IMG/VR virus record: IMGVR_UViG_2563366947_000002
DNA length: 64,000 nucleotides
Direction: 5' to 3' (one strand)
From: a virus
Lineage: Duplodnaviria; Heunggongvirae; Uroviricota; Caudoviricetes
Shown here: one piece after another, positions 11,738 to 50,360 of the stretch
How positions within the stretch are numbered: the stretch's first letter is position 1
How the letters are laid out: each line of letters opens with the position of its first letter
Made by a program: the position numbers and the translations under genes
Notes under the pieces: model-generated
What the model was told of the DNA's origin: nothing
Databases searched by the model: none
Seen by the model: only the letters and a program-made list of their open reading frames with translations

Positions 11738-11796
11738 CGTGCGGATAATCCGATTATTTGGCAGTTAAATCCCCGGAGTCGCCGGGGATGCAGCAT

Positions 11797-12738
11797 TTAA
11801 CTAACAATCCAGTCCATAGCAATAACATCCTCTGGAGCTAAATCAATAGCATGGATTTTCCCGTCCCGGATGGTGCGCCAGTGCTTTCGTGATCCACCTT
11901 CGGGCCATACCCATACACCTTCAGGCCAGGAAGAACGACGACACACTGTTGCGTATCCAGTCCTGATCTTCTCTCTGGCGGTATGTAGTGACAGATTATC
12001 CTTTGGGCTTTCAGGCACAGGATGGTGGATTGCCTGAAACATCCCCATCTTTGGATGATACCAGCGTTTATTGCGTGGTTCTGCCTCCGACATCACCTGC
12101 TTAAAGGCTTTCCGGAAGGGGGCTAGGGCCACAATGGAGCGTCGCGCAAGCAAACCATCTGGAGTTAAAAACTCATGCGTATCGGTGGGAATCCGGTAAG
12201 CGTTGACCAGGTTTCGGCATTTGGCTTCAGTCAGGCCGCATTTCGCCGCCAGCTGGCGGTAGCCAATGTAGCCTTCCGGCATATTGCCTTTCTTTATTTG
12301 CTCGACGGTTTCAGCGACTTTGGACACTTGTGCCGATACTTCGGCTACCTGGGCATTAACAGCGTTGATCCGGCGTTCATGCTCAAGATGCATTTGCGCC
12401 ATTTCAGCCAGGATTTCGGCTTTTGATTTTAACGGTCCCCTGGCATTCTCCAGTTCGCGCCAGCGGTCCACCAGCCGGGCGGTGAATTCCGGAGAGAGCT
12501 GTGCGACGACAATGATACTATCGCGCTTGCCTTGTTCGCCTTCGAAGACATAGGCTTTTGTGTATTTATTAGGGCTAAGTGATTGATTATTCTCAACTGT
12601 AGCCAATGGCGTATGTTGGATAACACCTTTAGCAACAAGTCTTTCGATGCTGCGTTTAACATCAGAGTGACGACTTCCCACCAGTTTCGCGATCTCAATA
12701 CTGGTCATTGTCGCTTTGCGAGAGATGGGCAGATTCAT
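11797..12738 (-). CDS. antirepressor-like protein with C-terminal small RR..W..G..W / DW-ending domain
   Basis: 313 aa; ATGA overlap with upstream icd-like ORF; paralogue of 49085..49792 plus 48888..49088. Confidence 0.45.
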   Translation of the reverse strand: MNLPISRKATMTSIEIAKLVGSRHSDVKRSIERLVAKGVIQHTPLATVENNQSLSPNKYTKAYVFEGEQGKRDSIIVVAQLSPEFTARLVDRWRELENARGPLKSKAEILAEMAQMHLEHERRINAVNAQVAEVSAQVSKVAETVEQIKKGNMPEGYIGYRQLAAKCGLTEAKCRNLVNAYRIPTDTHEFLTPDGLLARRSIVALAPFRKAFKQVMSEAEPRNKRWYHPKMGMFQAIHHPVPESPKDNLSLHTAREKIRTGYATVCRRSSWPEGVWVWPEGGSRKHWRTIRDGKIHAIDLAPEDVIAMDWIVS

Positions 12739-12953
12739 CAGTGCACCTCCACGCAGTTCATCGGCAGATTCCAGTAATTGAGGATCTCCATCGCATCAAG
12801 AGTGAAGCGTGCGGCAAAAATGCAGGGTTCTTCAGGAAGGTATGAACGAGCTTCTGCTTCGGTAGCAGCCATTACGCAGATATACAGGTGTTTTTGGCAG
12901 GAATAGAAACGCCAGATAAATTCAGAATGAGTTGGGGTAGGGATAGTAGCCAT
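12738..12953 (-). CDS. Icd-like small protein (positional)
   Basis: 71 aa with EFIWRF motif shared with paralogue at 49792..50015; AAGGAGG SD. Confidence 0.4.
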   Translation of the reverse strand: MATIPTPTHSEFIWRFYSCQKHLYICVMAATEAEARSYLPEEPCIFAARFTLDAMEILNYWNLPMNCVEVH

Positions 12954-13133
12954 ATTGGCAGCCTCCTTTTGCTAATTTAAGGAGCTACCGCGTGAGGTTC
13001 CAATCTCAATGGCGGTAGCACTGACTGGGTTGGAACTACCGGCGCAAAAGGGAACCGGCCTGCCTTTCGGCAGCCCAGCCAGCACTACCATTGATCTCTG
13101 AGCTAAACGCTACGTATGGCTGTGCGATGGCAT

Positions 13134-13175
13134 GACACAAAAAAAGACGCTTTCGGCGTCTGTGTCGCCTTTTGC
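13134..13175. terminator. bidirectional intrinsic terminator in icd/ant leader
   Basis: GACGC-tttcg-GCGTC hairpin with A7 upstream and overlapping GGCG...CGCC hairpin with TTTT downstream. Confidence 0.55.
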
Positions 13176-13265
13176 ATTATCCGGGGTTCCAATCCCGGCA
13201 CCCGTTTTTCTAAGGTGCCGTAGAAATATACCCCACGATAATGCCAGGGCGCAACAGTCAGTATT

Positions 13266-27998: not shown

Positions 27999-29036
27999 AT
28001 GAGTAAGAAGTCGATCGAGAAAGAGTACAAACGGTTCCTGCAAACCGCTGAACGGTGGAAAGAGCTGGTGGTCGCAAACTCTGTTTTCCATGATACCAGT
28101 TATGCTGGCGAGGAATTCCGCCATGTTGCATTAACGCATGACCAAAACATATTAGAAGAAGCTGAAAAATGTCTTGCTGAATGGAAAGCCTTCGTTGACA
28201 TGTGCCGCGATGCCGACGGCAAAGCGTCGAACATTGTTGAGTCTGTATATTCTCCGATCCCATTCATCATTGAGGACACCAATCAAAGCACGCATGTCGT
28301 TGTGCAAAGCGCTACAACAACACGTACATTTACACGTGAACAATTGCTAAAAAAATACGACAAAATCATAAAGAAAAGCCTGAAAAATAGGGTTTTTTCT
28401 CAAATCGTAGGTGCTCTTGAAGAAGAACAGCGCTTCTTTGAAGCTGAGCCTGAAGGCGAGATCTACCGGGCGCGTAAAGAGGCATATACAGATGTTGTGC
28501 TGACAACAAACATCGAAGGCAGCAATGCCCTTTCTCGCTTTAGAGTTGGCGCACATGGCGCATTGGTTTTCGCAAGACAACCGAAGACAACGATCCCCGT
28601 TGTCAATAATGTTGGTGAACGCCGGAGCATTACAATTTATTCTGGCGTCGAATCGGTACCTTGCAGCCTTCTCGGCGATTTTAACTTATATCGTGTTCGT
28701 GACCTGGAAAAACACCAGCCAAGCTACGTTGCGAAGTCGTACATCTTAAGGAACATCGATATTCGCAATGAAAGCCTTAAGCAGAAATCCGCTAAGATGC
28801 TGGAGGATGCCGATCCGGCTATTCGCCATATCATTGAGCGTAAGATACGTACATCACGTGAAGCAATGGCAAGGCTGGATAAAATGGATCTGGAATTGTT
28901 AGACGTAATGATGGCCTCTGGAGACGACCTGACCGGCATTAAACTGAATGAAGCTCGTAAAAAATACGGCAAAGCAATCGAAGAACGTTACGGATACACA
29001 TTCCCCCAAACGCAGTACGCCGCGAAGCTCTGGTAA
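27999..29036 (+). CDS. putative immunity repressor (positional analogue of P1 c1; not recognised by sequence)
   Basis: 345-aa ORF between lox and convergent pacB-like gene, preceded by operator copies, the position c1 occupies in P1. Confidence 0.35.
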   Translation: MSKKSIEKEYKRFLQTAERWKELVVANSVFHDTSYAGEEFRHVALTHDQNILEEAEKCLAEWKAFVDMCRDADGKASNIVESVYSPIPFIIEDTNQSTHVVVQSATTTRTFTREQLLKKYDKIIKKSLKNRVFSQIVGALEEEQRFFEAEPEGEIYRARKEAYTDVVLTTNIEGSNALSRFRVGAHGALVFARQPKTTIPVVNNVGERRSITIYSGVESVPCSLLGDFNLYRVRDLEKHQPSYVAKSYILRNIDIRNESLKQKSAKMLEDADPAIRHIIERKIRTSREAMARLDKMDLELLDVMMASGDDLTGIKLNEARKKYGKAIEERYGYTFPQTQYAAKLW

Positions 29037-33855: not shown

Positions 33856-33931
33856 TGGTGGCCCCTACCGGACTTGAACCGGTGACCGTGCGATTATGAG
33901 TCGCCAGCTCTAACCACTGAGCTAAGGGGCC
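33856..33931 (-). tRNA. tRNA with CAU anticodon (Ile2/lysidine-type or Met)
   Basis: 76 nt with encoded CCA; 5' GGCCCCTTAGCTCAGTGGTTAGAGC and anticodon loop CTCATAA closely resemble E. coli ileX. Confidence 0.85.
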
Positions 33932-35468: not shown

Positions 35469-35544
35469 TGGTGCCGATTAACGGACTCGAACCGCTGACA
35501 TCCTGCTTACAAGGCAGGCGCTCTACCAACTGAGCTAAACCGGC
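35469..35544 (-). tRNA. tRNA-Thr (anticodon UGU)
   Basis: 76 nt; GCCGGTTTAGCTCAGTTGGTAGAGC..., anticodon loop CTTGTAA, T-loop TTCGAGT, encoded CCA. Confidence 0.85.
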
Positions 35545-35546
35545 AT

Positions 35547-35622
35547 TGGCGATGATGGATGGATTTGAACCATCGACCCGTTGATTAACAGTCAACCGCT
35601 CTAACCGCTGAGCTACACCATC
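35547..35622 (-). tRNA. tRNA-Asn (anticodon GUU)
   Basis: 76 nt; anticodon stem GTTGA/TCAAC, loop CTGTTAA, T-arm GATGG-TTCAAAT-CCATC, encoded CCA. Confidence 0.85.
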
Positions 35623-46899: not shown

Positions 46900-48340
46900 C
46901 CCCTCTAAACCGTAAAAATTCCGCTATGCGGTACGGTTGAGAGGGTATGGAGAATGTTATTTTCAGCGAAAACCGCCGAGAACCCTCGCCCAGTGCTGGC
47001 GGGGAGGAACGGCGGAAAAGCCCAAAGGGCTTTAAAAAAATCATTACGGTGTTAGCATAAAAGCCTGTATCAATGAGCAATGACTATGTTAAGAGCGACA
47101 AAAGTACGTATATACCCCACTCCTGAACAGGCTGAATTTCTCAACGCCCAGTTCGGTGCGGTGCGTTTTGCGTACAACAAAGCTCTTCACATCAAAAAAC
47201 ATGCTTACCAGCGACACGGAGTAAATTTAAGTCCGCGTAACGATCTGAAACCGTTGTTGTCTGTGGCCAAAAAGTCCCGCAGATATGCCTGGCTCAAAGA
47301 GTTTGATTCAATGGCATTGCAACAGGCGGTAATTAATCTTGATGTGGCATTTTCCAACTTTTTTAATCCGAAGCTGAAAGCCCGGCTTCCGACTTTCAAG
47401 AGAAAGAACGGCTGGCAATCCAGCTATCACTGTGTCGGGATTAAGGTTCTGGATAATGCCATCAAAATCCCCAAACTTTCCCCGATTGAGGCACGCCTTC
47501 ATCGTGAACTTCATGGAAAGCTGAAAAGCATCACTATCACTCGTTCTGCGACGGGGAAATATTATGCGTCGCTACTCTGCGATGATGGCATGGAAACGCC
47601 AGCCAGACCTTCCATGATATCCCGCGTGACGGGGATAGATATGGGATTATCGCACTATGCCATCAAGTCCGATGGGGTAAAAGTTGCTAACCCTCGCCAT
47701 CTCATCAATGCCAGCCGTAATCTGCGACGCAAACAAAAAGCGTTATCTCGCAAGCAAAAGGGAAGCGCAAATCGCAAAAAGGCCAGAATCCGTCTGGCAG
47801 CGTTACACGAACGGGTAGCCAGTGCCCGTGCCGATTTCCAGCACAAGTTATCTCGCGCAATTGTTGACGAAAACCAAGCGGTAATTGTGGAGACACTGAA
47901 AAAAGCCAACATGATGAAAAACCACAATCTGGCGAGAGCGATAGGTGATGCCAGCTGGCACAGTTTCATCGCAAAGCTGGAGTACAAGGCGATGGAAAAA
48001 GGCGTTCACCTGGTAAAACTCGACCAATGGTTTGCCAGTTCGAAAACGTGCCATTGTTGTGGTTACAAAATGCCGGAAATGCCACTTCATAAACGCATCT
48101 GGCGATGCCCGGAATGCAGTATTGAACATGATCGCGACATCAATGCGGCACTCAATATCCGGCAAAAAGGAATACTGGAACTACAGGCGGCGGGACTCGT
48201 CGTTTCTGCCCATGGAGGCCAGCGTAAATCCGTCATACAGACGGTTGCGGCCTAAGAAGTGGGAAGCCTCGCCCGACAGGGCGGGGAGCAGTCACGGGGA
48301 CGATACTACCGTCAAAATCACATACTCCCCATAGTTTGCC
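46900..48340 (+). mobile_element. IS200/IS605-family insertion sequence carrying tnpB only; boundaries approximate
   Basis: Intact tnpB flanked by subterminal imperfect hairpins (CGCC...GGCG near 46986-47003 and CGCCC-gaca-GGGCG near 48270-48287); no tnpA. Confidence 0.6.
47080..48255 (+). CDS. tnpB: TnpB (OrfB) RNA-guided endonuclease-type transposase accessory protein
   Basis: 391 aa; MLRATKVRIYPTPEQ N-terminus, RuvC-like GIDMG, zinc finger CHCCGY...CPEC, C-terminal HDRDINAALNI. Confidence 0.85.
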   Translation: MTMLRATKVRIYPTPEQAEFLNAQFGAVRFAYNKALHIKKHAYQRHGVNLSPRNDLKPLLSVAKKSRRYAWLKEFDSMALQQAVINLDVAFSNFFNPKLKARLPTFKRKNGWQSSYHCVGIKVLDNAIKIPKLSPIEARLHRELHGKLKSITITRSATGKYYASLLCDDGMETPARPSMISRVTGIDMGLSHYAIKSDGVKVANPRHLINASRNLRRKQKALSRKQKGSANRKKARIRLAALHERVASARADFQHKLSRAIVDENQAVIVETLKKANMMKNHNLARAIGDASWHSFIAKLEYKAMEKGVHLVKLDQWFASSKTCHCCGYKMPEMPLHKRIWRCPECSIEHDRDINAALNIRQKGILELQAAGLVVSAHGGQRKSVIQTVAA

Positions 48341-48856: not shown

Positions 48857-48879
48857 AAAAGCCCCGGCCAGGCCGGGGC
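48856..48879 (-). terminator. minus-strand terminator hairpin
   Basis: GCCCCGGCC-a-GGCCGGGGC followed on minus strand by TTTTT. Confidence 0.5.
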
Positions 48880-48887
48880 ATCACGCT

Positions 48888-49088
48888 TCAAGTCACCATC
48901 CAATCATTACCGATTATATCAGCCGTCGATAAATCAACTTCCCGGATCTGGAGTCCATTAATACAAAACCATCCGGTAGTAGAGTAATTATCAGGCCAGG
49001 CCCATACACCAACACTCCATGCTTTACGGCGGCACACTTCAGCCTGTCCTTCCCTGATTTTTTTTACCGCCTGCATGATGTCCATCAC
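48888..49088 (-). CDS. small DUF2829-like protein (split C-terminal module of antirepressor paralogue)
   Basis: 66 aa; AEVCRRKAWSVGVWAWPDNY ... NDWMVT aligns with C-terminus of 11797..12738 product. Confidence 0.4.
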   Translation of the reverse strand: MMDIMQAVKKIREGQAEVCRRKAWSVGVWAWPDNYSTTGWFCINGLQIREVDLSTADIIGNDWMVT

Positions 49089-49792
49089 TCACCTCCCCAA
49101 CCGATCACCTGGAATTGCCCCATTTTGGGGTGATACCAGCGTTTTCCTCGGTGTTCAGCCTCCGACATCATCCGGTTAAAAGCATTCATGAAGGGAGATA
49201 AGGCCACGATGGAACGACGCGACAATACCCCCTCTGGAGTTAAAAACTCATGTGTATCGGTGGGAATCCGGTAAGCGTTGACAAGGTTGCGACATTTGGC
49301 TTCAGTCAGGCCGCATTTCGCCGCCAGCTGGCGGTAGCCAATGTAACCATCTGGCATATTGCCCTTCTTGATTTGCTCGACGGTTTCAGCGACCTGGCTA
49401 ACCTTTGACTCAACAGCATGAAGCCGCTTTTGCTGCTGAACTGCATTTGCAGCCATTGCGGCGATCATCTCTATTTCGGTCAACGGCTGGCGTACTTGTT
49501 CTTCCAGTTCGCGCCAGCGGTCCACCAGCCGGGCGGTGAATTCCGGAGAGAGCTGCGCAACGACAATGATACTGTCACGCTTGCCTTGCTCGCCTTCGAA
49601 GACGTAGTGTGAATTTTTAACTTTAAATCCTAAGTTATTGATATTTTCGGAAACCTCCATTGGAGGAAGTGGAATAACACCTGATTTACTCAAGCGTTCA
49701 ATAGTGCGTTTAACGTTATCCGGGCGACTTCCCACCAGCTCCGCGATCTCAATGCTGGTCATTGATGGCTTTTCAAGAATGCAGATATCCAT
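49085..49792 (-). CDS. antirepressor-like protein (paralogue of 11797..12738)
   Basis: ATGA overlap with icd-like ORF; MTSIEIAELVGSR... and central region near-identical to first copy. Confidence 0.45.
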   Translation of the reverse strand: MDICILEKPSMTSIEIAELVGSRPDNVKRTIERLSKSGVIPLPPMEVSENINNLGFKVKNSHYVFEGEQGKRDSIIVVAQLSPEFTARLVDRWRELEEQVRQPLTEIEMIAAMAANAVQQQKRLHAVESKVSQVAETVEQIKKGNMPDGYIGYRQLAAKCGLTEAKCRNLVNAYRIPTDTHEFLTPEGVLSRRSIVALSPFMNAFNRMMSEAEHRGKRWYHPKMGQFQVIGWGGE

Positions 49793-50015
49793 CAATGTGC
49801 CTCCGCAATGCCGGGATTGGTAATATTGCGATACCAAGGATTAGTGTTTGGTTGTGGGGAAGTAGAGAAACGACCAGTAAGAACACCATACTGATCAGGG
49901 ATCAGAGAACGGGCTTCTTTTTCGGTTGCGGCAATTGCGAAGTGATCGCAATGTTTTTGCAGGGAGTGGAAACGCCAGATAAATTCCGGGCGCGAGCAAG
50001 GATTGGCATTAACCA
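49792..50015 (-). CDS. Icd-like small protein (paralogue)
   Basis: ATG at 50015 with GAGG SD; MVNANPCSRPEFIWRF...; ORF track extends into leader. Confidence 0.4.
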
Positions 50016-50360
50016 TAGTTACGGCCTCATTCGTAGGTTTAACAACCTGCGCCCCCGCTGCTAAACGGGTGGCAGGACGTGACGGGGTTAGCAGACTGGC
50101 ACGAATGAAACCAGCAGGCCGAAGCCTCCCCATCACGCCCCACCATAATTCGGGCGTAACGTGGTGTTACGGACACAAAAATACCGCAATATCGGATATC
50201 TGCGGTTGTCCGCATTCGTATTCAGGCTGCTAAACCCGGTCGCAGAATTTGCTACGACGGCATGAATATAAGCCTGAAAACATGGAAGATCAACTAAAAA
50301 TTTCAGCAATGGATGACTTCAGTCGATGATGCAGATCATACATTCCGATTTAGAAACAGC

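What the first reader, a model, noticed from the sequence alone, without database searches (positions are those of the whole stretch)
11797..12953. Two paralogous icd/antirepressor-like modules, one fused and one split
Locus 1 (12953 to 11797) and locus 2 (50015 to 48888) each encode a small EFIWRF-motif protein translationally coupled (ATGA) to an antirepressor-like protein. In locus 1 the antirepressor carries a C-terminal small domain that in locus 2 is a separate 66-aa ORF (48888..49088). Two such modules in one phage, with a fused/split domain difference, suggest duplication and divergence of an anti-immunity switch.
Basis: seen in the sequence. Interest (0 to 1): 0.55.

Follow-up and report, generated by a model that had tools for sequence, protein, structure and literature searches.

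The report
Two orthogonal C4-controlled anti-immunity operons
This D6-like phage-plasmid carries two complete, independently controlled copies of the P1-type antisense-RNA "anti-immunity" switch. The small domain that is fused in one copy and free-standing in the other has the fold of Tad2, a phage protein family that soaks up bacterial immune signals.

Summary
The window is a D6-like P1-family phage-plasmid, and D6's GenBank annotation already lists both modules.

Each locus is a full immI-type cassette on the minus strand:
- a leader with a1/b1 sites and a terminator hairpin;
- a C4 antisense RNA (Rfam 76.7 and 71.9 bits);
- a2/b2 sites, with b2 over the icd ribosome-binding site;
- icd;
- a Rha-family "Ant", joined to icd by a 1-nt TGATG overlap, not ATGA.

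The two C4 RNAs have different recognition loops, and each matches only its own sites. Across 36 related loci (22 P1-type, 14 IsrK-type) plus P1 and D6, loops and sites change together in nine allele combinations. The switches are therefore functional and orthogonal.

The Ants are 67% identical mosaics and are not homologous to P1 Ant1/2. The split is not a lesion. The 65-aa ORF has its own Shine-Dalgarno sequence and a TGATG junction, and it is intact in about 110 plasmids.

Verdict: a new variant of a known system. The biochemical role of the domain is unresolved.

The parts
13140..13218 (-). Locus 1 leader RNA (IsrK-type). It carries the a1 site TTGGAAC (13192..13186), the b1 site GCAAAAGG (13175..13168) and a terminator hairpin (13161..13145).
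   Evidence: Rfam RF01394 isrK scores 62.5 bits against a gathering score of 50. Sites were located. The terminator-like hairpin AGACGCCGAAAGCGTCT followed by a T-run was found.
13008..13095 (-). Locus 1 C4 antisense RNA. Its recognition sequences are b' CCTTTTGC (13051..13044, in a hairpin loop) and a' GTTCCAA (13036..13030, in a single-stranded bulge).
   Evidence: Rfam RF01695 scores 76.7 bits, E 3e-13. Predicted fold is -46.4 kcal/mol, z -5.46, with a' and b' unpaired. Sites were located.
12965..13003 (-). Locus 1 target sites in the icd leader: a2 TTGGAAC (13003..12997) and b2 GCAAAAGG (12972..12965). The b2 site overlaps the Shine-Dalgarno AAGGAGG, which lies 8 nt before the icd ATG.
   Evidence: Exact complementarity to the C4 loops was shown. 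The sequence was read. Covariation with the loops across relatives was shown.
12738..12953 (-). icd-1, an Icd-like protein of 71 aa.
   Evidence: It is 63% identical to P1 Icd. It scores 49.4 bits on NCBIfam NF033153 against a cut-off of 25. It matches phrog_1426.
11797..12738 (-). ant-1, a Rha-family regulator of 313 aa. It comprises an N-terminal winged helix-turn-helix, a long helix, a conserved second domain and a fused C-terminal Tad2-like domain.
   Evidence: PF09669 scores 32.6 bits against a cut-off of 29.9. It matches phrog_63 'anti-repressor Ant' at E 2.4e-61. The 1-nt TGATG overlap with icd-1 was seen.
11800..11994 (-). The fused Tad2-like (DUF2829-fold) domain, residues 249-313 of Ant-1.
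   Evidence: It is 42% identical to the free-standing ORF of locus 2. It matches phrog_7385 at residues 252-312. pN/pS is 0.13 among relatives.
11771..11787 (-). Hairpin CCCCGG-CGACT-CCGGGG directly after the ant-1 stop codon. It is a possible operon terminator with a weak T-run.
   Evidence: Read from the sequence. The terminator scan did not list it.
50265..50293 (-). Locus 2 promoter-like site, TTGATC-17-TATATT. It lies at the position of P1's P1c4 promoter.
   Evidence: Found by the consensus scan. Its position matches the annotated P1 promoter. Promoter function is not shown.
50213..50271 (-). Locus 2 leader (P1-type c4-a1b1), with a1 TTAGCAG (50233..50227) and b1 ACGAATG (50219..50213).
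   Evidence: Rfam RF03163 matches 50271..50219 at 54.6 bits against a gathering score of 46.7. Sites were located.
50065..50150 (-). Locus 2 C4 antisense RNA, with b' CATTCGT (50107..50101) and a' CTGCTAA (50094..50088).
   Evidence: Rfam RF01695 scores 71.9 bits, E 4.6e-12. Predicted fold is -46.2 kcal/mol, z -5.43. Sites were located.
50027..50064 (-). Locus 2 target sites: a2 TTAGCAG (50064..50058) and b2 ACGAATGA (50034..50027). The b2 site overlaps the Shine-Dalgarno GAGG, which lies 8 nt before the icd ATG.
   Evidence: The layout matches the annotated a2/b2 sites of P1.
49792..50016 (-). icd-2, an Icd-like protein of 74 aa.
   Evidence: It is 61% identical to P1 Icd. It scores 40 bits on NF033153 against a cut-off of 25.
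49085..49792 (-). ant-2, a Rha-family regulator of 235 aa with no C-terminal small domain.
   Evidence: It is 67% identical to Ant-1. PF09669 scores 26.2 bits, below the cut-off of 29.9, and HTH_24 scores 31 bits. It corresponds to D6 orf18.
48888..49085 (-). Free-standing Tad2-like ORF of 65 aa. It is translationally coupled to ant-2 through a TGATG junction with a GGAGG Shine-Dalgarno just upstream.
   Evidence: - AlphaFold2 model with pLDDT 91.5.
- The top 16 Foldseek hits in the PDB are all Tad2, with TM 0.73-0.77.
- BFVD hits are DUF2829 proteins.
- phrog_7385 matches at E 2.5e-49.
- The ORF is intact in about 110 plasmids and in 21 of 22 IMG/VR loci.
48861..48879 (-). Intrinsic terminator after the small ORF: GCCCCGGCC-TGG-CCGGGGC followed by TTTTT.
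   Evidence: Found: 8 G-C pairs followed by a T-run.

Best explanation
The window is a D6-like P1-family phage-plasmid. It carries two complete P1-immI-type cassettes that are mutually orthogonal.

**Layout of each cassette (minus strand)**
- A leader RNA with two sites (a1, b1) and a terminator hairpin.
- A processed C4 antisense RNA whose two unpaired segments (a', b') are complementary to a1/b1.
- A second pair of sites, a2/b2. The b2 site covers the ribosome-binding site of icd.
- icd, then a Rha-family regulator ('Ant') that restarts on the icd stop codon (TGATG).
- A minimal Tad2-like (DUF2829-fold) module. It is fused to Ant in locus 1. In locus 2 it is a separate ORF that restarts on the ant stop codon.

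**How the switch works (inferred from P1/P7 and from Gifsy-1 IsrK)**
- In a lysogen, C4 pairs with a2/b2 and blocks icd translation. Through translational coupling and polarity this also blocks the genes behind icd.
- On infection, or when C4 is titrated by the a1/b1 leader RNA, the whole payload is made together.

**Consequence of two specificities**
- The loops differ: locus 1 uses a TTGGAAC and b GCAAAAGG, and locus 2 uses a TTAGCAG and b ACGAATGA.
- Each C4 should therefore silence only its own operon.
- The element has two independent anti-immunity channels of different specificity. Both also differ from those of phage D6.

**The Tad2-like module**
- It is a genuine part of the payload.
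- The fused/split pair, together with equal-stoichiometry coupling, suggests that it acts with the Rha protein as an oligomerisation, partner-binding or ligand-binding module.
- It is less likely to be a bulk gcADPR sponge, because its canonical ligand site is mostly not conserved.

**Shown versus inferred**
- Shown: the anatomy, the complementarity, the covariation, the fold and the conservation.
- Inferred: repression in vivo, antirepressor activity against the C1-like repressor, and the role of the Tad2-like module.
For: **Identity of the element**
- 90-98% nucleotide identity to phage D6 and 98.5% to plasmid NZ_CP032492.

**RNA parts**
- Two C4 hits plus isrK and c4-a1b1 leader hits, all above their Rfam gathering scores.
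- Both C4 RNAs fold into the canonical shape, z -5.4, with a' and b' unpaired.
- Exact a1/a'/a2 and b1/b'/b2 complementarity exists within each locus and none exists between loci.
- The layout is the same as the annotated P1 sites.

**Covariation**
- The 36 IMG/VR loci (22 P1-type, 14 IsrK-type) plus P1 and D6 show 5 P1-type and 4 IsrK-type loop combinations.
- In every locus where the leader region could be read, loops and both target pairs change together with full pairing.

**Proteins**
- Both Icd proteins pass NF033153 and are 61-63% identical to P1 Icd.
- Ant-1 and Ant-2 match Rha/PF09669 and phrog_63 'anti-repressor Ant'.
- Natural alleles are mosaics of locus-1-type and locus-2-type segments.

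**Split ORF**
- It has its own Shine-Dalgarno and a TGATG restart.
- It is intact at 89-100% identity in about 110 plasmids. There are 122 records with 223 places, so about 100 carry both copies.

**Tad2 fold**
-.
- A sequence bridge runs through P0008, which scores 37.4 bits on PF11195 against a cut-off of 25.

**Link between C4 and the domain**
- In two distant D6-like elements, a c4-a1b1 leader and a C4 RNA sit directly upstream of a stand-alone homologue. No icd or ant lies between them.
Against: - No experiment exists for D6-type modules. Antirepressor function is positional, because the Ants are not homologous to P1 Ant1/2.
- The P1 C1 operator consensus is absent from the window. The C1-like repressor is only 21% identical to a P1-type C1 (that of phage RCS47).
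- The domain falls below the Pfam cut-off on its own: 15.3 bits against 25 for the free ORF, and no hit at all for the fused copy.
- Of the gcADPR contacts of SPO1 Tad2 and HgmTad2 (W-N-G ... W-x-x-S-x-T-D), only the first W and the D are kept in both copies. This mapping rests on the HMM alignment.
- The insertion between beta2 and beta3, which forms the dimer interface and the cyclic-dinucleotide pocket in Tad2, is reduced to about 7 residues.
- The free ORF shows weak constraint, with pN/pS 0.72 based on few substitutions.
- Six or seven of 14 fused-type IMG/VR loci carry frameshifts in ant. The Rha part of locus 1 may therefore be dispensable.
Confidence: 0.72

Rival explanations
1. One anti-immunity module was duplicated within this phage and diverged, and a frameshift or stop mutation split off the small domain in one copy.
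For: - Gene order is the same in both loci, the Ants are 67% identical, and both Icd proteins carry EFIWRF.
- The ant cores are 78-86% identical at the DNA level.
Against: - The c4-icd parts do not align at the DNA level, and the Icd proteins are only 43% identical.
- The locus-1-type c4-icd cassette is 88-95% identical to one found in P1-like RCS47 and JL22. There it is joined to a P1-Ant-type gene. Cassette and payload therefore assort independently.
- The linker regions differ by several codons, with no single lesion. The split junction is a conserved Shine-Dalgarno plus restart.
- Stand-alone DUF2829 proteins are the common form, so fusion is at least as likely to be the derived state.
Confidence: 0.2
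2. The Tad2-like module is an independent anti-defence sponge, for Thoeris, CBASS or Pycsar signals. It rides on an operon that is expressed only early in infection or induction. Its fusion to Ant is incidental.
For: - The domain has the Tad2 fold.
- The Tad2 family is functionally very diverse and binds 3'cADPR, His-ADPR, N7-cADPR, cyclic dinucleotides and cUMP/cCMP (PMC12393519; PMC10680739).
- In relatives, a C4 cassette drives the stand-alone homologue alone.
- C4 control gives early, transient expression, which suits a sponge.
- Replacements in the free ORF cluster in the loops that line the Tad2 pocket.
Against: - The canonical gcADPR residues are mostly replaced: N to S/P, W to V/I, T to A/E.
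- The insertion that forms the dimer interface and the cyclic-dinucleotide pocket is nearly absent.
- A sponge needs high copy number. This module is tied 1:1 to a regulator by fusion or by a restart junction.
- The family is tiny, with 7 hits among 1.84 billion representatives.
Confidence: 0.22
3. One of the two modules is a redundant, decaying remnant with no function in this element.
For: - Frameshifted ant alleles occur in 6-7 of 14 fused-type IMG/VR loci.
- Rare truncated variants of the small ORF exist in the protein database (P0002, P0003, P0007).
- pN/pS is 0.72 for the free ORF.
Against: - In this window every ORF of both loci is intact.
- Loop and target covariation in both lineages shows continuing selection on the RNA switch.
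- pN/pS is 0.13 for the fused domain and 0.28 for split-type ant.
- About 100 plasmids keep both copies.
Confidence: 0.06

Closest known systems
Phage P1/P7 immI region (c4 antisense RNA - icd - ant1/ant2)
   Same: - C4 RNA of the same Rfam family.
- a1/b1 and a2/b2 sites in the same order and with the same spacing.
- b2 lies over the icd ribosome-binding site.
- An Icd homologue (61-63% identical).
- The downstream gene is translationally coupled to icd.
- Allelic loop specificities, as between P1 and P7 (P1: a TTGACAG, b GTTAGTG).
   Different: - There are two cassettes per genome rather than one.
- The downstream gene is a Rha-family protein unrelated to P1 Ant1/Ant2.
- A Tad2-like module is added, fused or split.
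- repL lies upstream of locus 2, not downstream.
- The P1 C1-operator consensus is not found.
Phage D6 orf17-19 and orf82-83 (GenBank MF356679; Gilcrease & Casjens 2018) and D6-like plasmid pYU39_89
   Same: - Both modules sit at the same genomic positions, at 90-98% nucleotide identity.
- A second c4/icd region has already been remarked on (PMC6799933).
   Different: - The window's C4 specificities differ from D6 at both loci. D6 locus 1 has a TTGAGAC. D6 locus 2 has a TTGACAG and b ACTTACG.
- D6 orf17 is annotated 'hypothetical protein', and the C-terminal domain of orf82 is not annotated.
- No Tad2/DUF2829 assignment was found in the annotation or in the searchable literature.
- The D6 paper itself could not be read.
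Gifsy-1 IsrK - orf45 - anrP locus of Salmonella (PMC4825925)
   Same: - The locus 1 leader is a member of Rfam isrK at 62.5 bits.
- It has a Rho-independent terminator and sits upstream of a translationally coupled small ORF and an antirepressor-like gene.
- In Gifsy-1 the short IsrK RNA activates translation of the downstream genes in trans. The a1/b1 leader could play the same role here.
   Different: - Here a full C4 RNA and an Icd homologue lie between the leader and the regulator.
- The Gifsy-1 paper does not relate IsrK to the P1 c4 system (no mention of P1 or icd).
- Rfam does not place isrK in the C4 clan.
Tad2 / DUF2829 (PF11195) immune-signal sponges (SPO1 Tad2, ModTad2, HgmTad2 = AcrIIA7)
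   Same: - Same fold and topology: an N-terminal helix, an antiparallel sheet, a short helix and a last strand.
- The R-R-x-x-W and D-x-x-x-x-D-W-x-V motifs are conserved.
   Different: - It has only 65 residues and almost no beta2-beta3 insertion.
- Four of six canonical gcADPR contacts are replaced in the fused copy and three of six in the free ORF.
- It is fused or coupled to a DNA-binding regulator.
- It is under antisense-RNA control.
- It scores below the Pfam cut-off.
Second c4-icd-ant module of P1-like phages RCS47 and JL22 (between pacB and c1)
   Same: - The c4-icd leader is of the same IsrK-type lineage as locus 1, at 88-95% nucleotide identity.
- These are further cases of two C4 modules in one phage-plasmid.
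   Different: - The payload there is a 371-aa P1-Ant-like protein, not a Rha protein, and it has no Tad2-like domain.

Membership tests
P1-type immI anti-immunity cassette | C4 antisense RNA (Rfam RF01695) with the canonical fold | tested here: met
   The two loci score 76.7 and 71.9 bits against a gathering score of 45. Both folds have z about -5.4, with loops a' and b' unpaired.
P1-type immI anti-immunity cassette | Two pairs of sites (a1/b1 upstream, a2/b2 downstream) complementary to the C4 loops, with b2 over the icd ribosome-binding site | tested here: met
   Exact 7-8-nt complementarity in both loci. b2 overlaps the Shine-Dalgarno sequence. Perfect covariation across nine allele combinations.
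P1-type immI anti-immunity cassette | Icd homologue as the first gene | tested here: met
   NF033153 scores 49.4 and 40 bits against a cut-off of 25. Identity to P1 Icd is 63% and 61%.
P1-type immI anti-immunity cassette | Downstream gene homologous to P1 Ant1/Ant2 | tested here: not met
   BLASTP of Ant-1 against P1 Ant1 gives only a 67-residue low-scoring match, E 0.011. The D6-type genes are Rha family.
P1-type immI anti-immunity cassette | C1-controlled operator upstream of c4 | tested here: inconclusive
   The P1 operator consensus has no match within 3 mismatches. The window's C1-like repressor is only 21% identical to a P1-type C1 (that of RCS47), so its operator may differ.
P1-type immI anti-immunity cassette | Antirepressor activity and C4-dependent repression in vivo | not testable with these tools
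   Needs reporter fusions and induction assays.
Rha family (Pfam PF09669) | Score at or above the Pfam gathering threshold | tested here: met
   Ant-1 scores 32.6 bits against 29.9. Ant-2 scores 26.2 bits, below the threshold on its own, but is 67% identical to Ant-1.
Tad2 / DUF2829 (Pfam PF11195) | Sequence score at or above the gathering threshold | tested here: not met
   The free ORF scores 15.3 bits against 25 (E 0.031), although the match spans the full length. The fused domain gives no hit. Support is indirect only: a profile of the domain finds P0008 at E 3.2e-4 over 1.84 billion proteins, and P0008 scores 37.4 bits on PF11195.
Tad2 / DUF2829 (Pfam PF11195) | Tad2 fold | tested here: met
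Tad2 / DUF2829 (Pfam PF11195) | Conserved gcADPR pocket (SPO1 W25, N26, W73, S76, T78, D79; HgmTad2 W21, N22, W87, S90, T92, D93) | tested here: not met
   By the HMM alignment, W is kept and N becomes S (free ORF) or P (fused). The second W becomes V/I, S becomes S/A, T becomes A/E, and D is kept.
Tad2 / DUF2829 (Pfam PF11195) | Insertion between beta2 and the following strands that forms the dimer interface and the cyclic-dinucleotide pocket; homotetramer | tested here: inconclusive
   The model has only about 7 residues between beta2 and beta3 and no alpha2 helix. Oligomeric state could not be predicted with a single-chain tool. Minimal DUF2829 proteins of 60-66 aa do exist in other phages.
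Tad2 / DUF2829 (Pfam PF11195) | Sequestration of an immune signalling nucleotide; inhibition of Thoeris, CBASS or Pycsar | not testable with these tools
   Needs binding and infection assays.
IsrK sRNA (Rfam RF01394) | Covariance-model score at or above gathering, with a Rho-independent terminator at the 3' end | tested here: met
   Scores 62.5 bits against 50 at 13218..13140. The terminator lies at 13161..13145. Trans-activation was not tested.

The most novel reading that the evidence does not exclude
The minimal Tad2-like module is a ligand-binding sensor, not a sponge. When fused or bound to the Rha-type regulator, it would couple a nucleotide signal in the host cell to the lysis-lysogeny switch. 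The signal could be a TIR- or cGAS-type immune messenger, or c-di-GMP. The plasmid prophage would then induce, or an infecting phage would commit to lysis, when host immunity fires. The two orthogonal C4 channels would give two independently gated versions of this sensor.
Probability: 0.1. Interest if true: 0.85.

Novelty: new variant of a known kind. Interest (0 to 1): 0.5.

Why it matters
C4-type antisense switches decide whether P1-like phage-plasmids stay silent or turn lytic, and they set heteroimmunity between relatives. These elements are common carriers of resistance genes in E. coli and Salmonella.

- **Orthogonal switches.** One element carries two orthogonal switches, and the population holds many loop/target alleles that co-vary perfectly. 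This gives a natural set of orthogonal RNA regulators. It also points to an arms race over superinfection immunity.
- **A Tad2-fold payload.** A Tad2-fold protein is a recurrent payload of these switches. It occurs fused to the regulator, coupled to it, or alone behind C4. This ties the immunity switch to a protein family known so far only for anti-defence.
- **Testable outcomes.** The module may be a new minimal sponge, or a new non-sponge use of the DUF2829 fold. Binding and induction assays can distinguish the two.

Tried and rejected
- **Word-indexed homologue search with the 65-aa ORF.** It returned only 3 close hits. The same search with P0008 returned only P0008 itself. I therefore could not assemble a DUF2829 alignment for a profile-profile test.
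- **Exhaustive HMMER search.** It found only 7 relatives, so the family is very narrow at sequence level.
- **tblastn of the fused domain against the phage collection.** It hit only D6.
- **Full-length Ant-1 structure.** pLDDT was 54.9 and the model was unusable. The alignment was too shallow.
- **AFDB fold library.** Not available.
- **Genome-collection scans.** With P0006 and with the domain alignment they found nothing useful.
- **P1 C1-operator consensus.** No match in the window.
- **The D6 genome paper (Gilcrease & Casjens 2018).** Not held in the library. I cannot say how far it discusses the two modules.
- **Plasmid pSa1423-160k (L006).** It looked like an intermediate (56% identity). 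The record is full of frameshifts, so I discarded it.
- **The 81-aa 'transcriptional regulator' next to cre in IncY plasmids (L008).** I first suspected a P1 gene. It is a truncated C-terminal fragment of a fused Ant.
- **A coding error of my own.** My first pN/pS run for the free ORF used a wrong frame for the window copy. The corrected run is.
- **Pseudogene reading for the split ORF.** Rejected. It has an intact, conserved junction, and this window shows no lesions.
Full report
**What the window is**

Both loci match Escherichia phage D6 (MF356679), at 90.5% for locus 1 and 97.7% for locus 2. The first 25 kb of the window match about 90-kb E. coli and Salmonella plasmids at up to 98.5%. The window is therefore a D6-like, P1-family phage-plasmid.

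D6's GenBank annotation already lists both modules:
- orf83 'icd' and orf82 'putative anti-repressor';
- orf19 'icd', orf18 'putative anti-repressor' and orf17 'hypothetical protein'.

[quoted passage not shown] The D6 genome paper itself is not in the library.

**Check of the observation**

- The two Ants share 67% identity over 238 aa.
- Residues 249-313 of Ant-1 align end to end with the 65-aa ORF of locus 2, at 42% identity and E 3e-18.
- The Icd proteins are 43% identical to each other and 61-63% identical to P1 Icd. Both pass NCBIfam NF033153.

All three gene junctions are TGATG, a 1-nt overlap, not ATGA. At the DNA level only ant (86% over 278 nt, 78% over 320 nt) and an 82-nt core of icd align.

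Rfam finds a C4 antisense RNA upstream of each icd, at 13095..13008 (76.7 bits) and 50150..50065 (71.9 bits). It also finds a leader element upstream of each C4: isrK at 13218..13140 and c4-a1b1 at 50271..50219.

I used the annotated P1 sites as a template. Each locus has the full set of sites:

| Element | Locus 1 | Locus 2 |
|---|---|---|
| a1 | TTGGAAC | TTAGCAG |
| b1 | GCAAAAGG | ACGAATG |
| a' | GTTCCAA | CTGCTAA |
| b' | CCTTTTGC | CATTCGT |
| a2 | TTGGAAC | TTAGCAG |
| b2 | GCAAAAGG | ACGAATGA |

In both loci b2 overlaps the Shine-Dalgarno sequence, which lies 8 nt before the icd ATG. Neither locus contains the other's sites. Both RNAs fold as expected, at about -46 kcal/mol and z -5.4, with a' and b' unpaired. 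Both leaders carry a hairpin with a T-run between b1 and C4. The terminator scan flagged it for locus 1. For locus 2 it is seen directly in the sequence and matches P1.

**Evidence that both switches are under selection**

I fetched 36 related loci from IMG/VR and extracted loops and sites from those with readable leaders, together with P1 and D6.
- P1-type cassettes show five loop combinations.
- IsrK-type cassettes show four.
- In every locus, a1, a' and a2 change together, and so do b1, b' and b2, with full pairing.

This three-way compensatory change is strong evidence for function.

It also shows that the window differs from D6 itself at both loci. D6 locus 1 has a TTGAGAC. D6 locus 2 has a TTGACAG and b ACTTACG. 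By analogy with P1 and P7, whose heteroimmunity rests on c4 specificity (established knowledge of that system), the window's element should be heteroimmune to D6 at the immI level. Each of its two C4 RNAs should silence only its own operon. This last step is inference.

**The 'antirepressors'**

Both are Rha-family proteins. Ant-1 scores 32.6 bits on PF09669 against a cut-off of 29.9, and Ant-2 scores 26.2 bits. The best PHROG is phrog_63, 'anti-repressor Ant'. Ant-1 shows no meaningful similarity to P1 Ant1/2. The immI membership feature 'Ant homologue' therefore fails, and antirepressor activity is a positional inference.

The window's repressor candidate (28017..28709) is only 21% identical to a P1-type C1, that of RCS47. 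The P1 operator consensus is absent.

Natural alleles of the 301-313-aa fused protein are mosaics. For example, P0120 combines the locus-2-type N-terminus and coiled coil with the locus-1-type C-terminal half. The two loci therefore exchange segments in the population.

**Duplication or separate origin?**

The locus-1-type leader, C4 and icd are 88-95% identical to a second, partly unannotated module in the P1-like phages RCS47 and JL22. That module lies between pacB and c1 and drives a 371-aa P1-Ant-like gene. The c4-icd cassette and its payload are therefore exchangeable units. The two D6 modules are old paralogues at the cassette level, with partly homogenised ant genes. They are not a recent in-genome duplication.

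**Fused versus split**

I found no single lesion linking the two states.
- The fused linker is I-HHPVPESPKDNLSLHTARE-KIR.
- The split version is I-GWGGE-stop, then MDIMQAVK-KIR, preceded by a GGAGG Shine-Dalgarno and using the same TGATG restart as the other junctions.

The architecture icd(74)-ant(235)-ORF(65) is found in 21 of 22 split-type IMG/VR loci. The ORF is full length at 89-100% identity in about 110 plasmids, and about 100 of them also carry the fused copy.

Constraint differs between the copies:

| Region | pN/pS |
|---|---|
| Fused domain | 0.13 |
| Split-type ant | 0.28 |
| Free ORF | 0.72 |

The free-ORF value rests on few substitutions. Its replacements cluster at residues 24-26, 34, 45, 51 and 57.

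Six or seven of 14 such loci have frameshifts in ant. It is intact in this window.

**What the small domain is**

- *Sequence searches.* Pfam gives the free ORF a weak but full-length match to PF11195, 'Thoeris anti-defense 2-like' (15.3 bits against a cut-off of 25). An exhaustive profile search of 1.84 billion representatives found only 7 relatives. One of them, P0008, scores 37.4 bits on PF11195.
- *Model.* An AlphaFold2 model of the ORF is confident, with pLDDT 91.5.
- *Foldseek against the PDB.* The top 16 hits are all Tad2 structures (SPO1 Tad2 and ModTad2), with TM 0.73-0.77 and probability 0.99-1.00. The next hit drops to probability 0.28.
- *BFVD.* The hits are DUF2829/Tad2-like viral proteins. 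They include 60-66-aa minimal forms and longer multi-domain forms.

The fold assignment is solid. Function is not.

The gcADPR contacts in SPO1 Tad2 are W25, N26, W73, S76, T78 and D79. In HgmTad2 they are W21, N22, W87, S90, T92 and D93. By the HMM alignment they map as follows:

| HgmTad2 contact | Free ORF | Fused domain |
|---|---|---|
| W21 | W | W |
| N22 | S | P |
| W87 | V | I |
| S90 | S | A |
| T92 | A | E |
| D93 | D | D |

The insertion that forms the dimer interface and the cyclic-dinucleotide pocket is reduced to about 7 residues. No paper in the library links DUF2829 with Rha proteins or antirepressors.

**An unexpected link**

The two nearest stand-alone relatives outside the D6 clade are P0006 (68 aa) and P0005 (96 aa). 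They are 38% identical to each other. Both lie on 88-90-kb contigs of distant D6-like elements whose capsid gene is about 77% identical to D6 at the nucleotide level.

In both contigs the gene follows a c4-a1b1 leader and a C4 RNA directly. No icd or ant lies between them (Rfam). In L045 the sites a TTGACAG and b CACTCAAGA occur in the leader, in the loops and just before the start codon, and a terminator follows the gene.

The Tad2-like protein is therefore a recurrent payload of C4 cassettes, in three architectures: alone, coupled to a Rha gene, or fused to it.

**Interpretation**

*Well supported:*
- two complete, orthogonal C4 switches;
- a payload of Icd, a Rha-family regulator and a DUF2829-fold module;
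- both the fused and the split forms are maintained.

*Inferred:*
- C4 represses through a2/b2 and coupling, as in P1.
- The leader RNA can antagonise C4, as IsrK activates anrP in Gifsy-1 (PMC4825925).
- The Rha protein counteracts the C1-like repressor.

For the module, the fused/split pair and the 1:1 coupling favour a role together with the Rha protein. The C4-only architecture and the family's known versatility keep an independent anti-defence role open. I put about 0.22 on a sponge function. I put about 0.1 on the more novel idea that the module senses a nucleotide signal and feeds it into the switch.

**Verdict**

The finding is real and the paralogy holds, but the two-module arrangement was already annotated in D6. 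New here are:
- the demonstration of orthogonality and covariation;
- the recombination between the loci;
- the Tad2-fold identity of the small domain;
- its recurrent association with C4 cassettes.

It is a new variant of a known kind of system and is of moderate interest.

Noticed in passing
L045 3746-4207 and L047 3752-4291: In two distant D6-like elements, a c4-a1b1 leader and a C4 RNA sit directly upstream of a stand-alone Tad2-like gene (68 and 96 aa). No icd or ant lies between them, and in L045 a terminator follows the gene directly.
   Followed up: partly
window 46967..48291: A 1,325-bp insertion relative to phage D6 lies between the darB end and the peptidoglycan-hydrolase gene, next to locus 2. 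It carries a 391-aa ORF (47080..48255) that resembles an IS200/IS605-type TnpB. That identification is by eye and no family search was run.
   Followed up: partly
L004 (RCS47 record 103405-103807) and L005 (JL22 record 96407-96736): The P1-like phages RCS47 and JL22 carry a second c4-icd-ant module of the locus-1 (IsrK) type between pacB and c1. It drives a P1-Ant-like gene. In RCS47 nothing is annotated under the matched c4-icd stretch.
   Followed up: partly
L039-L042, L037, L038, L044: Six or seven of 14 fused-type loci in IMG/VR have frameshifts inside ant. Four contigs from different samples share the same one, which gives overlapping 212-aa and 120-aa ORFs. C4, icd and the C-terminal domain stay intact. 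These could be real decay or sequencing error.
   Followed up: no
window 13140..13218 and 50219..50271: The Rfam families isrK (RF01394) and c4-a1b1 (RF03163) hit equivalent leader elements of the two cassettes. Both carry a1/b1 sites and a terminator hairpin upstream of a C4 RNA. Only c4-a1b1 is filed in the C4 clan, and the IsrK paper does not mention the P1 c4 system.
   Followed up: partly
L008 2453-2698 (plasmid CP057196.1): An 81-aa 'transcriptional regulator' lies next to a cre-like recombinase gene and IS903B in IncY P1-like plasmids. It is a truncated C-terminal fragment of a fused Ant that still includes the Tad2-like domain.
   Followed up: partly
window 28017..28709 (+): The only C1-repressor-like coding region in the window is 21% identical to a P1-type C1 over 242 aa. 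No P1-type C1 operator consensus occurs anywhere in the window.
   Followed up: no
window 33859..33931, 35472..35544, 35550..35622 (-): Three tRNA genes were found by Rfam. This is the tRNA region known from D6-like plasmids.
   Followed up: no
window 48888..49085 and relatives L009-L030: Amino-acid replacements in the free Tad2-like ORF cluster at residues 24-26, 34, 45, 51 and 57. Several of these lie in loops that line the ligand pocket in Tad2. pN/pS is 0.72, against 0.13 for the fused copy.
   Followed up: partly
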